Source of the DNA: Escherichia coli
GTDB taxonomy: Bacteria > Pseudomonadota > Gammaproteobacteria > Enterobacterales > Enterobacteriaceae
NCBI RefSeq assembly: GCF_050320075.1
Contig: NZ_CP190018.1
Strand: one strand, 5' to 3'
DNA length: 64,000 bases
Below, one piece after another: positions 60,001-63,000 of the stretch; positions within the stretch are counted from its first letter, which is position 1, and each line of letters opens with the position of its first letter. A program made the position numbers.

Positions 60001-63000
60001 TTAACCATGTGATTATTCGCAGAGGCCCGACAGCTCTGGCCTGCTTTTATTCCGGAGAATGAGATTATGCAAATAAGTGCAGAAACTCGCGCTGTTTTAC
60101 GTCACTACAGACAGATCATTAACGCCAGACGGCGTGAAGATGGCATGAAAGCTCTCAGCACGCCGCAAATCGTTGATGAGATCTGTGAGTTTATGCTCAG
60201 CCAGCCAGCAGTGTATCTGGGGGGGCAGTTCATCATGCAGAAGGCCAGAACAAGATAGCTGTCTTTGTTCATGGCTTTTCAACAGACCGTTATGCTTTCG
60301 CCACCACATGGTGAGGCGGGTCTGATTTTACTGTTAACCGTACGGTTCACTCTCATACCGTACGGTGGGAGTGAACCCTTTTCATTAAGGACACTCTCAT
60401 GAAAACGAAAACTTCTGCACCTGCTGTATATGTTGGTACCTGGGCTAAATACAACAATGGCAGCATAGAAGGATGCTGGTTTAATGATTTAACCGTTTTT
60501 GAAACTGAAAGCGATTTTTTAGCTGCGGCCCGTAAGTTTCATAAGGATGAAAAAGATCCTGAATTTATGTACCAGGATTATGAAAACTTTCCTTCGGGAA
60601 TGGCTTCAGAATATGGTTTCAACTGGGCTTATGTTGAAGGTTATCGTCTTGCCCGTGAAGAAGGCTGTGAAGATGCATGGTATGCATGGGTTTCTAATAC
60701 CGGTGATACCTGTTTCGAACAGTTCAGGGGGGCGTGGCTTGGTGGTCCTTATGACAGTGAACTCGAGTTCGCCGCGCAGTACGTGGATGAATGCGGTTTT
60801 CTGTCAGAGGTACCTGATACTGTTGCACGCTATTTTGATTATGAGGCTTTTGCGCGCGATTTGTTCATGGAACTGGATTTTGTCGACGGACACGTTTTCC
60901 ATAGGTAACTCACAGCCATGAGGGCGCATATAAGCCGTGTACTGGCGGATGTGATTTCAGCATACATTCTGCTGGTTTTTTTACCGTTGTTGACAATTTT
61001 AATCATCGCGGATGAACAACCTGAACTCTGTTGTTCACCGCCCGGAGGCATCGTTCCTTCGGACGGTGTGCTCTTTCATCAGAAAGAATCAGACAGGGGG
61101 TTTTATGTATTCGCGTTTTATTACTGGTTACTGGCATCTTCAGACGCAGTCCGCTTTGCTGGCACATCTCTGTCAGCTTGAAGGTGAACTGACGATACTT
61201 CGCGCCTGGCAACGTCTCGGAATTACCCCGGTGCCGGAGGATGAAGATGAGCCTTCACCACTTTACTCAATTTTGTGGGATGTTGGTGAGGCTCTGGGCT
61301 GGTTGCTGTATGACCTGGAGATGGAAAATGTTCCTGCACCGGGAACGATTTTCCACGAGGTATTCGACAGGGTTATATCTCTGGGGTATGAGACTGAGCC
61401 CGGTATCTGGGCTGAAAGTATCAGTACCGGAAAGCGCTACGCTGCAATGCCTGACGAATTTTAATGTTTTCCACATTCCCACAGGGACTCATCCCTGTGG
61501 GACGGGTCCCGGCTTTTTCAGGAGAAATTTCATGAGACCCGATTTGAATACTTTACCCGGAGATTCCGGCTGCAGCGTCTGGTTCTATGACGGAATGTCT
61601 CAACCGCGTCTGCTGGCGGGCAGTATTGCCGGGTTACTGACGGATGTTACGATCACATCGAATTACCGTGGTGACGTCACATCTGAAATTCATGACGTGG
61701 TGCAGGAGTGGCTTGCGACCGGCAGGGGGAAGAACTCTGGTACTACAACCTCTACATAAATCCGTCGGCAGACGAACTTATGAATGCCAACAGGCGGTAT
61801 GGCCTCGGACATACCACCTGGCTGAAAGGCTTTATCAATAACGCGGCGTGACACACCGCCATCCCGTGAGGGCTCAGCTCCTCACGGGGCTGTTCCCTCA
61901 GTGATTTTCATACAGAGAGGAGCAGAATGATGAACGTTAAGTCTGTGACTGAGGTTGACGACGCTGTGGTTGCCCGTGTCAGTGAAGTTCTGGAATTCGC
62001 ATTTCCGGGGCAGAAATTTGAAGTGCTGAAGGTATGCGATTCCGGTGTTTACAACATGATTAATGTGTACTGGCTGGACGGCCCGACACAGGCTGAAGTG
62101 CGGTTTATCACCCGTGCGTTTGAAGGCAAAAACGGGCTGAGGTTTGTGCACGAATCCCGCGAATTCAGTAATGAATTTGTGCAGGAGTGCATTGACCGGC
62201 TTCGCCAGAAGTACGGGCAGAGCAACGTTCCGCCAGATGTGACCGTGGAGCGTTACTGGAAAAACGATCTGTGGAAGATTAAAACAGATCGTTTCCCGGG
62301 CAATATTGAGGTTGCCATCAACGAAATGGGGATGGAAACCAGTAAATACCGGAAGGTTGTATAACCGGCTGGACTTTTGACGATGGCGGAATGTGACAAT
62401 TCCGCTTTTCCCGTGAGGGCATTGTTCCTCACGGGACAATGCCCTCTTCATTTACCAGAGGAGCATTGATTATGGCTGAATGGTGCAGAAATCGTTTTGA
62501 AATCACCGGTAAGTCAGTCTGTCTTGACGTACTGATTCAGTGGATTGAAGGGAATGATGCCCCCCGGTACCGTCATGCGATCCAGCAGAGCATACTGCTG
62601 TTTCTTGCAGGCTGTGCGGGGATACTGAAACCGGTAAGAACGGTGACATATCCGCCTTATCCAGGGCTGGTCAGTCACGGTGCCGGCTCAACAACTGTAG
62701 CCAGCCAGGCGTTTGAACAATGGCTGGGATTACTGGCCAGGGATGCCTTCCTTGATCACGAGACGGTGAAGACAATAGATCGTCTTTATCATCAGACAGG
62801 GACAGGCGCGATCCGGTGGAGTAATCTGCCTGATACGGCGAAGGAGATAATCGGTGGTGTGCTTGCACAACAATATGCTGACTGGTTTGGCGTGGTGGAT
62901 GTGTATGAACGCCCTGATAACGCCTGTCTCTGGGAGTCGTTGTTAACATTTGCGGAGTATTCGCAACCCTGCGATATGCTGCAGGTGATGCCAACGCGGC

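What the first reader, a model, noticed from the sequence alone, without database searches (positions are those of the whole stretch)
61863..62435. Same GC-rich hairpin (CCCGTGAGG-N8-CCTCACGGG) repeated upstream of two consecutive genes
At 61863-61888 and 62410-62435 a 9-bp stem with an 8-nt loop recurs, about 40 nt upstream of the start codons at 61927 and 62472. The stems are identical and the loops differ, and neither is followed by a T-tract, so they do not look like simple intrinsic terminators. They could be operator sites, RNA processing or stability elements, or small dispersed REP-like repeats.
Basis: seen in the sequence. Interest (0 to 1): 0.4.

Follow-up and report, generated by a model that had tools for sequence, protein, structure and literature searches.

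The report
Switchable mRNA leader before ICE genes
The repeated GC-rich hairpin is one of two competing folds of a conserved mRNA leader placed before anti-restriction and establishment genes of a conjugative element; the fold probably controls both whether transcription continues and whether the ribosome-binding site is exposed.

Summary
In detail: CCCGTGAGG-N8-CCTCACGGG occurs exactly at 61863-61888 and 62410-62435, 39 and 37 nt before the LPD29 and DUF1281 start codons, with none expected by chance. It is not a REP element, an operator or a lone hairpin. Each copy (helix B) is the first helix of a four-segment mRNA leader. Its 5' arm plus its 'variable' loop are complementary to the next segment, giving a longer, mutually exclusive hairpin T (61867-61900; 62415-62446). 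In relatives T is followed by a U-tract and looks like an intrinsic terminator. The 3' arm of T is an anti-Shine-Dalgarno sequence that can instead pair with the gene's SD (helix C). Across 32 divergent DUF1281 leaders, T has strong covariation (9 of 13 pairs with double changes, 0 of 500 shuffles). B and C are supported more weakly. Predicted stability runs B < T < B+C, so a growing transcript folds as B, then T, then B+C. Unrelated sequences with the same logic precede ArdA, STY4534/DUF3577, ArdC and other genes in operons headed by the orphan STAXI RNA motif. The trigger that turns the genes on is unknown. No Rfam family or paper found describes the element.

The parts
61843..61859 (+). Hairpin A of the LPD29 leader (GCGGCGUGACACACCGC, GUGACA-type loop), upstream of the switch
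   Evidence: RNA fold; aligned with copy 2
61863..61888 (+). Helix B, copy 1 (the reported hairpin): CCCGUGAGG / CCUCACGGG, loop GCUCAGCU
   Evidence: forms first in the growing-transcript folds
61867..61900 (+). Helix T, copy 1: UGAGGG..CAGCUCC / GGGGCUG..CCCUCA, mutually exclusive with B; followed by GUGAUUUUCA
   Evidence: MFE of the leader cut before the SD; homologous to the covarying T helix
61890..61925 (+). Helix C, copy 1: anti-SD CUGUUCCCUC pairs with GAG-A-GGAGCAG, which contains the LPD29 Shine-Dalgarno sequence
   Evidence: Full-leader MFE; duplex -17.2 kcal/mol against -7.0 for shuffles
62385..62406 (+). Hairpin A of the DUF1281 leader (GGCGGAAU-GUGACA-AUUCCGCU, then UUU)
62410..62435 (+). 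Helix B, copy 2 (the reported hairpin): CCCGUGAGG / CCUCACGGG, loop GCAUUGUU
62415..62446 (+). Helix T, copy 2: GAGGGCAUUGUUCC-UCAC-GGGACAAUGCCCUC (14 bp, -26 kcal/mol), followed by UUCAUUUACC
   Evidence: (flagged terminator-like); covariation
62437..62468 (+). Helix C, copy 2: anti-SD CAAUGCCCUCU pairs with AGAGG-A-GCAUUG, which contains the DUF1281 Shine-Dalgarno sequence
   Evidence: duplex -16.1 against -4.4 for shuffles, and 0.003 of shuffles as good with the SD core held fixed
60337..60398 (+). ArdA leader with the same logic and unrelated sequence: B = ACCGUACGGU twice (60337-60346 / 60357-60366); T = 60344-60377 followed by CUUUUCAUU; C = GGGAGUG (60367-60373) with CACUCUC (60392-60398) next to the start codon
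27607..27686 (+). STY4534/DUF3577 leader in the second STAXI-headed operon: B 27607-27636, T 27611-27654 followed by a U7 tract, C 27638-27686 covering the SD and AUG
   Evidence: passes the strict three-state signature; homologous module with compensatory changes in SGI-4
28169..28245 (+). Leader of the small gene at 28250: B 28169-28207 (CCUCCCUGAU / AUCAGGGAGG), T 28181-28217 followed by UAUUGUUUUU, C 28209-28245 covering the SD AAGGAA
58707..58860 (+). STAXI RNA motif (RF01728) heading the operon that holds both reported hairpins; a promoter-like site lies at 58603-58632
   Evidence: (138 bits)
63444..63462 (+). Plain strong terminator (GCGCCACAUUCUGUGGCGC followed by U7) that ends the operon after DUF1281

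Best explanation
Each reported hairpin (helix B) is the 5'-most helix of a cis-acting, bistable mRNA leader made of four segments. Segment 1 is the 5' arm of B plus its loop and resembles a Shine-Dalgarno sequence (GAGGG...). Segment 2 is the 3' arm of B. Segment 3 is an anti-SD (..CCCUC), followed in most relatives by a U-tract. Segment 4 is the gene's real SD region. Pairing 1:2 gives B. Pairing 1:3 gives a longer hairpin T that cannot coexist with B and looks like an intrinsic terminator. Pairing 3:4 gives C, which hides the SD. Proposed working: during transcription B forms first. When segment 3 emerges, the more stable T replaces B and can stop or pause RNA polymerase at the U-tract. This step should be strong in Pantoea, Salmonella SGI-4, Citrobacter, Yersinia and Xenorhabdus and weak in this E. 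coli island, where the U-tracts have decayed. Transcripts that continue refold into B+C once the SD is made, so the SD is masked. B is therefore the helix that releases the anti-SD from T so that it can clamp the SD. The net effect is that each anti-restriction or establishment gene is silenced by default at two levels. Translation is possible only while T still holds the anti-SD, for example on transcripts made by a polymerase that ignores T. What is shown: the pairings, their conservation and covariation, the energy ordering, and the recurrence before many genes. What is inferred: actual termination, translational repression, and above all the signal that turns the genes on.
For: The two leaders share a three-hairpin fold, with z-scores of -4.0 and -5.3. 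The differing loops are complementary to each copy's own downstream segment. Across 32 distinct DUF1281 leaders from E. coli, Salmonella, Pantoea, Mixta, Yersinia, Hafnia, Acerihabitans and Xenorhabdus (proteins only 50-55% identical), helix T is 88.8% paired against 43-61% for slid controls. Nine of 13 pairs change on both sides (27 cells), and 0 of 500 shuffles reach any measure. RNAalifold predicts the same helix independently. Abundant G.U pairs (22 at one position) point to sense-strand RNA. Cognate arms bind better than swapped arms for T (-24.5 vs -18.8), B (-17.3 vs -14.9) and C (-12.1 vs -9.8 kcal/mol). The pairing of segment 3 to the SD region beats shuffles in 34 of 37 leaders. The median is 6 U in the 8 nt after T, and T is the longest terminator-like hairpin on the gene strand in L012 and L006. 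The energy order B < T < B+C holds in 32 of 37 leaders, and growing-transcript folds go from B to T to B+C. Unrelated sequences with the same logic precede ArdA, STY4534, ArdC, DUF3085, a methylase and others. Nine of 19 cluster leaders pass a strict algorithmic signature, against 4.8% of shuffles and 2 of 55 other gene starts. Terminator-like sites are enriched in both operons (19 vs 6.5+-2.7; 14 vs 6.0+-2.2).
Against: Helix B, the reported feature itself, has only weak covariation: 2 of 10 pairs with double changes, and 82.1% paired against 80.9% in shuffles. Most of its support comes from the conserved 5' CCC tail, its complementarity to T's apical loop, and the energy ordering. In the window's own two copies the U-tracts are poor, so termination there is doubtful. 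At equilibrium B+C is favoured by 7-12 kcal/mol in these two copies, which would leave the genes almost untranslatable, and no activating signal was identified. All structures are thermodynamic predictions; there are no transcript or probing data. Terminator-like sites were not enriched overall in three related loci. My first, looser refolding score did not discriminate.
Confidence: 0.68

Rival explanations
1. Factor-dependent antiterminator: B is a RAT- or ANTAR-like hairpin. A trans-acting RNA-binding protein (element- or host-encoded) or a small RNA stabilises it and so prevents the terminator T from forming. The SD pairing is secondary.
For: The layout, a small 5' hairpin overlapping the 5' half of a stronger terminator, is the layout of protein-dependent antiterminators (established knowledge of BglG/SacY RAT and ANTAR systems). 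Segment 1 is strikingly conserved (ACCCAUCGGGGGAAC across genera). A CCC-N4-GGGG motif recurs at the start of modules before different genes.
Against: Stabilising B frees the anti-SD to mask the SD, so it would allow read-through but block translation. No RNA-binding or antiterminator domain was found among the operon's proteins. B stems differ completely between leaders of the same element (ArdA, STY4534, hyp28250), which argues against one sequence-specific binder. The conservation of segment 1 is explained by its having to pair with two partners.
Confidence: 0.12
2. Translational or stability element only: the leader just tunes ribosome access (SD masked by C, offset by T) and protects processed mRNA ends. 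T never acts as a terminator, and its U-tract serves as a ribosome standby or S1-binding site, or simply pairs with the A-tract upstream of the SD.
For: The window's own copies have weak U-tracts. In Pantoea, SGI-4 and Yersinia the U-tract pairs with an A-tract next to the SD. The modules lie inside operons, where full termination would silence downstream genes.
Against: A 14-17 bp GC-rich hairpin followed directly by U6-U8 (Pantoea, SGI-4, Citrobacter, STY4534 leader) is a canonical intrinsic terminator signal for E. coli-type RNA polymerase. In Xenorhabdus the U-rich tract is conserved even though it does not pair with the SD region.
Confidence: 0.14
3. DNA-level element: an operator for a dimeric repressor, a REP-like dispersed repeat, or an attC-like recombination site that marks the boundaries of gene cassettes next to the island's integrase-domain gene.
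For: The element is a perfect 9-N8-9 palindrome present twice. Gene content of these arrays differs between elements while DUF1281 keeps its leader, and homology to plasmid copies begins exactly at the 5' edge of B. An integrase-domain gene and the EFASI and STAXI motifs flank the arrays.
Against: It occurs in only 2.8% of E. coli genomes, at 1-4 copies each. Pairing is conserved through G.U pairs and compensatory changes, which would be mismatches on the other strand or in DNA. The loop co-varies with a downstream segment and with the SD. Orientation and position relative to start codons are strict. No promoter lies nearby.
Confidence: 0.04

Closest known systems
Transcription attenuators with overlapping antiterminator and terminator hairpins (trp/his/pyrBI leaders; RAT-BglG/SacY; ANTAR)
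   Same: A 5' hairpin and a stronger terminator-like hairpin share nucleotides and exclude each other, and the decision is made as the leader is transcribed.
   Different: There is no conserved leader peptide and no known protein-binding motif. The module is repeated before nearly every gene inside an operon rather than once at its head. The terminator's 3' arm doubles as an anti-SD, so the 'antiterminated' fold is translationally off.
Translational attenuation leaders (ermC, cat/cmlA)
   Same: Four segments, with 1:2 plus 3:4 as the off state in which 3:4 hides the SD, and an alternative pairing that frees it.
   Different: The alternative pairing is 1:3, not 2:3. No ribosome-stalling leader ORF is conserved. 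The alternative helix is followed by a U-tract.
[quoted passage not shown]
   Same: The host is a conjugative element. Several terminator-like hairpins lie inside same-strand operons, and a structured RNA (STAXI) sits at the operon's 5' end just downstream of a conserved promoter-like site (PMC11658703, PMC8955417).
   Different: Those systems are from Gram-positive bacteria and are experimentally shown. Here nothing shows that STAXI antiterminates, and the terminators carry an added SD lock not described for those systems.
STAXI (RF01728) and radC (RF01754) RNA motifs of MPF_G-type ICEs
   Same: Same genomic neighbourhood and gene associations (ssb, topoisomerase, antirestriction, integrase; PMC2864571, PMC5587801). 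STAXI lies 1-3 kb upstream on the same strand in 12 of 16 loci.
   Different: The hairpin modules match no Rfam model, even at E<=1. They are single switchable hairpins before start codons, not tandem pseudoknots.
REP/BIME extragenic palindromes
   Same: GC-rich intergenic palindromes between convergent or co-directional genes.
   Different: Not dispersed (150 of 5,426 genomes, 1-4 copies each), strictly oriented, and structurally coupled to the downstream SD.

Membership tests
Intrinsic (Rho-independent) terminator | GC-rich stem-loop followed directly by a U-tract | tested here: not met
   For the reported 9-bp hairpin B, the next bases are GCUGUUCC and ACAAUGCC. B itself is not a terminator.
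Intrinsic (Rho-independent) terminator | The same feature applied to the alternative hairpin T | tested here: inconclusive
   Copy 2's T is flagged terminator-like (14 pairs, tail TTCATTTACC). Copy 1's tail GUGAUUUUCA is poor. Orthologous T hairpins have U6-U8. Actual termination was not measured.
REP/BIME dispersed repeats | Hundreds of copies per genome, dispersed in extragenic regions | tested here: not met
   150 of 5,426 E. coli genomes, 1-4 places per genome; only 2 full copies in the 64-kb window.
Any curated Rfam family (including STAXI, radC, EFASI, known leaders and thermometers) | Covariance-model match at or near the gathering score | tested here: not met
   A permissive cmscan (E<=1) of 58000-64000 returned only STAXI at 58707-58860 and nothing at the hairpins; the whole window was scanned.
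Leader-peptide attenuation (trp-type or erm-type) | A conserved short ORF whose translation overlaps the switching segments | tested here: not met
   E. coli copy 2 has a 28-codon ATG ORF (62383-62469), but most Xenorhabdus, Yersinia and Hafnia leaders have no start codon in any frame that is open across the module.
Cis-regulatory RNA switch with mutually exclusive helices | Two alternative pairings share nucleotides, and each is supported by conservation or covariation | tested here: met
   T: 9 of 13 pairs with double changes, 0 of 500 shuffles. B: 82% paired, above the slid controls, but with weak covariation. C: beats shuffles in 34 of 37 leaders. Cognate arms bind better than swapped arms for all three.
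SD-sequestering translational repressor hairpin | The Shine-Dalgarno sequence is base-paired in the most stable fold of the full leader | tested here: met
   Full-leader MFE structures pair GAGGAG with CCCUC in both window copies and in the E. coli, Pantoea, Hafnia and Yersinia types. The effect on translation was not measured.
Processive-antitermination-controlled operon (conAn/canT/put-like) | A 5' cis element that makes RNA polymerase read through downstream terminators | not testable with these tools
   Only circumstantial: STAXI lies at the operon's 5' end after a conserved promoter-like site, with several terminator-like hairpins downstream.
Protein operator (DNA palindrome) | Sequence, rather than pairing, is conserved; the site overlaps or adjoins a promoter | tested here: not met
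   Pairing is kept through compensatory and G.U changes, and no promoter-like site lies within about 2 kb on the + strand near the hairpins.

The most novel reading that the evidence does not exclude
The orphan STAXI RNA (function unknown since 2010) is a cis-acting processive antitermination element, analogous to HK022 put, the B. subtilis EAR element or Tn916 canT. The B/T/C leaders are its client terminators and also act as translational locks. Only polymerase modified at STAXI reads through T while T is folded, and only then is the SD free. Any leaky read-through that arises because B persisted gives mRNA whose SD is masked by C. Together these would form a two-level AND gate that keeps anti-restriction and establishment genes of MPF_G-type ICEs silent in the integrated state and allows a burst of expression on activation or entry.
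Probability: 0.15. Interest if true: 0.8.

Novelty: new variant of a known kind. Interest (0 to 1): 0.55.

Why it matters
Anti-restriction and establishment genes decide whether a conjugative element survives entry into a new host, and how they are kept silent and then switched on in ICEs of Gram-negative bacteria is poorly understood. A conserved per-gene RNA module that links a terminator-like fold to masking of the ribosome-binding site would be a compact two-level control unit travelling with each gene cassette. It is present in ICEs and plasmids of E. coli (in one related strain, next to an mcr-1 transposon), Salmonella SGI-4, Klebsiella, Citrobacter, Pantoea, Yersinia and Xenorhabdus. 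It also gives the long-orphan STAXI motif a concrete, testable job, and it defines a candidate new RNA family for Rfam-style curation.

Tried and rejected
- REP-like repeat: rejected by genome-wide counts.
- Known RNA family: nothing in Rfam at the hairpins.
- Leader-peptide or uORF attenuation: the uORFs in the window's leaders looked suggestive, but they are not conserved in relatives.
- H-type pseudoknot (B loop pairing with segment 3 while B stays folded): considered and rejected on geometry, because there are no linker nucleotides between the helices. This is inference, not a computation.
- Thermosensor: considered, but B+C is 7-12 kcal/mol more stable than T in the window copies at 37 C. 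No folds at other temperatures were run, so this is inference.
- First, loose refolding score over all gene starts: it did not discriminate (4 of 10 vs 4 of 55) and was dropped. A stricter definition did discriminate.
- Overall enrichment of terminator-like sites in three related loci: not significant.
- Column-based counting of helix B is limited by a 1-nt register ambiguity between the E. coli-type and Xenorhabdus-type leaders.
- The reference strain's annotation upstream of window position 40300 is not colinear with the window because of an IS66 insertion, so it could not be used directly there.
- Literature searches for DUF1281 and STAXI found no description of these leaders. The first STAXI search collided with a psychology acronym.
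Full report
**Observation.** The pattern CCCGTGAGG-N8-CCTCACGGG occurs exactly twice in the window, at 61863-61888 and 62410-62435 on the + strand, and in none of 100 dinucleotide shuffles. The stems are identical and the loops differ. The hairpins end 39 and 37 nt before the ATGs of an LPD29-domain gene (61927-62364) and a DUF1281 gene (62472-63434). Aligning the two intergenic regions shows that the similarity is wider than the stems: an upstream hairpin with a GTGACA loop, a downstream CCCTC, and the same SD GAGGAGCA.

**Context.** The window is a chromosomal integrative conjugative element (ICE) of E. coli, 100% identical to strains YZLc1-3 and EC17CM2 over the region tested. 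It has TIGR037xx-type (MPF_G, SPI-7/ICEclc/PAPI-1-like) transfer genes and a type IVb pilus. The hairpins lie in a same-strand run of small genes: three hypotheticals, ArdA, two hypotheticals, LPD29 and DUF1281. A strong terminator at 63444-63462 closes the run. A STAXI RNA motif (RF01728, 138 bits) at 58707-58860 heads it, preceded by a promoter-like site at 58603-58632.

**Anatomy.** Both leaders fold into three hairpins (z = -4.0 and -5.3):
- A, the upstream hairpin.
- B, the reported stem.
- C, in which a CCCUC-containing segment pairs with the SD.

The loops of B differ between copies, but each is complementary to its own downstream segment. B's GAGGG plus its loop can therefore pair with that segment to give a longer hairpin, T (61867-61900; 62415-62446, 14 bp, -26 kcal/mol), that cannot coexist with B. 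The leader thus has four segments:
- Segment 1 is SD-like.
- Segment 2 is the 3' arm of B.
- Segment 3 is the anti-SD.
- Segment 4 is the real SD.

The possible pairings are 1:2 (B), 1:3 (T) and 3:4 (C).

**Comparative evidence.** Plasmid and ICE homologues of the DUF1281 gene share nucleotide similarity that begins exactly at the 5' edge of B. I collected 43 DUF1281 loci whose proteins are 50-55% identical to the query, from Xenorhabdus, Pantoea, Mixta, Yersinia, Hafnia, Acerihabitans and Chimaeribacter. I added Salmonella SGI-4, a Klebsiella plasmid and a Citrobacter plasmid. All of their leaders have the four segments, although the sequences differ.

- Helix T. On an alignment of 32 distinct leaders, T is 88.8% paired against 43-61% when partners are slid. 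Nine of 13 pairs have changes on both sides (27 cells), and 0 of 500 shuffles reach any measure. RNAalifold predicts the same helix independently. The many G.U pairs indicate that the sense-strand RNA, not DNA or the antisense strand, is the folded molecule.
- Helix B. B is 82% paired and above the slid controls, but only two pairs show double changes. Its support is therefore mainly indirect: the conserved 5' CCC tail lies outside T and is complementary to T's apical loop, with E. coli CCCGUG/CACGGG against Hafnia CCCAUC/GAUGGG.
- Alignment-free check. Each leader's own arms bind better than arms swapped between leaders for T (-24.5 vs -18.8), B (-17.3 vs -14.9) and C (-12.1 vs -9.8 kcal/mol).
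- Helix C. The pairing of segment 3 to the SD region beats shuffles in 34 of 37 leaders, and in 12 of 37 when the SD core is held fixed.

**Terminator likeness.** In most relatives T is followed at once by U-rich sequence (GCCCUCUUUUUUUU in Pantoea, U7 in SGI-4, U8 in Citrobacter), with a median of 6 U in 8 nt. T is the longest terminator-like hairpin on the gene strand in L012 and L006. In the window's two copies the U-tracts are degraded.

**Energy ordering.** T is more stable than B, and B plus C together are more stable than T in 32 of 37 leaders, by a mean of 3.8 kcal/mol. For the window copies the difference is 7.3 and 11.7 kcal/mol. Folding the leader as a growing transcript gives B, then T, then B+C.

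**Generality.** Leaders with unrelated sequences but the same succession precede the following genes:
- ArdA and hyp59594 in the same operon.
- STY4534/DUF3577 and a small gene in a second STAXI-headed operon at 27365-29048.
- Several genes of SGI-4.
- All four genes of a Citrobacter plasmid cluster.

A strict algorithmic definition of the signature is met by 9 of 19 such leaders, against 4.8% of their dinucleotide shuffles and 2 of 55 other gene starts in the window. A CCC-N4-GGGG start motif recurs on the gene strand 40-80 nt before other start codons in the related loci. Terminator-like sites are enriched in both window operons, but not overall in three related loci. STAXI lies upstream on the same strand in 12 of 16 loci. 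A promoter-like site is conserved just upstream of STAXI.

**Mechanism.** I take the hairpin to be the alternative helix of a cis-acting leader switch. T can stop or pause transcription, and while it stands it keeps the anti-SD occupied. B breaks T and hands the anti-SD to the SD. The default outcome is silence at two levels. The pairings, the covariation and the energy ordering are shown. Termination, translational repression and the activating signal are inferred.

I tested and rejected a conserved leader peptide as the trigger. No RNA-binding domain was found among the operon's proteins. Precedents for operons of conjugative elements that are studded with terminators and read by processive antitermination, including a cis-acting RNA, exist in Gram-positive bacteria (Tn916 canT, PMC11658703; pLS20 conAn, PMC8955417). 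STAXI has no known function (PMC2864571), is abundant in MPF_G ICEs (PMC5587801) and is transcribed downstream of topB in Pectobacterium (PMC4710047). That STAXI supplies antitermination is my most novel reading, and it is untested.

**Rivals.**
- A protein-stabilised antiterminator (RAT/ANTAR-like) fits the layout. But it would leave the SD masked, and the B stems differ within a single element.
- A purely translational or stability role fits the weak U-tracts in E. coli. It does not fit the canonical hairpin-plus-U8 of relatives.
- Operator, REP and attC-like readings are contradicted by RNA-type covariation, strict orientation and rarity (150 of 5,426 genomes).

**Novelty.** No Rfam family matches, and I found no paper describing these leaders. 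The parts are familiar: attenuator-like exclusive hairpins and SD sequestration. Three things appear to be new: the combination of 1:3 terminator pairing whose 3' arm is the anti-SD, its deployment before nearly every gene of the operon, and the association with STAXI. I rate it a new variant of a known kind.

Noticed in passing
window 23214-24130: More than 20 copies of the 17-nt palindrome TGTTGCCAGTGGCAACA at a 36-bp period. The array lies inside an ORF annotated as hypothetical, next to the STY4528-family island replication gene and upstream of topoisomerase III. It looks like an iteron, centromere or origin-like array rather than coding sequence.
   Followed up: no
window 27365-27518, 55910-56069, 58707-58860; EFASI at 56547-56669: Three STAXI motifs and one EFASI motif, all on the + strand of one ICE. 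STAXI copies 1 and 3 are nearly identical over about 240 nt, which suggests duplication or gene conversion. A sigma-70-like promoter sits at a conserved position just upstream, also in SGI-4.
   Followed up: partly
window 58848 and 27506-27643: The last STAXI repeat contains the SD and ATG (ATGGCGGTACATCCG...) of the first downstream ORF. After STAXI copy 3 this is a 197-aa gene. After copy 1 it is a 45-codon ORF that reads through helices B and T of the STY4534 leader and stops inside segment 3.
   Followed up: partly
window 62383-62469: A 28-codon ATG-initiated uORF (MAECDNSAFPVRALFLTGQCPLHLPEEH) runs through hairpins A, B, T and C and stops 2 nt before the DUF1281 ATG. Copy 1 has a GTG ORF at 61848-61904. 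Neither is conserved in other genera, so they are probably fortuitous, though local translational coupling is not excluded.
   Followed up: yes
window 61843-61859 and 62385-62406; L002 ~5972-6000; L048 ~2478-2504: A hairpin containing GUGAC(A) precedes the switch in E. coli, SGI-4 and Citrobacter, and in copy 2 it is followed by UUU. It may be the 3' end or stabiliser of the upstream cistron. Pantoea has a different hairpin at the same place.
   Followed up: no
window 60957-60975: A plain terminator-like hairpin (TCAGCATACATTCTGCTGG followed by T7) lies in the ArdA-hyp61105 spacer, upstream of that gene's own B/T module, so this spacer has two terminator-like signals in tandem.
   Followed up: no
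window 30105-30128 and 30487-30510: Two identical terminator-like hairpins (AGCGCCTGCCATTGTGCAGGCGTT followed by a T-run), each preceded by the same promoter-like site (30008 and 30390). This indicates a direct repeat of about 382 bp upstream of the pilL-like gene.
   Followed up: no
L001 25073-29726 (E. coli YZLc1-3, just beyond the window's end): In the strain that is identical over this region, an ISApl1-mcr-1-pap2 composite transposon is inserted a few kb downstream of the DUF1281 gene, so this ICE lineage carries colistin resistance.
   Followed up: no
window 61882-62451, minus strand: A 189-aa ORF lies antisense to the whole LPD29 gene and spans both hairpins. It has no support from the reference annotation and is most likely spurious.
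   Followed up: no
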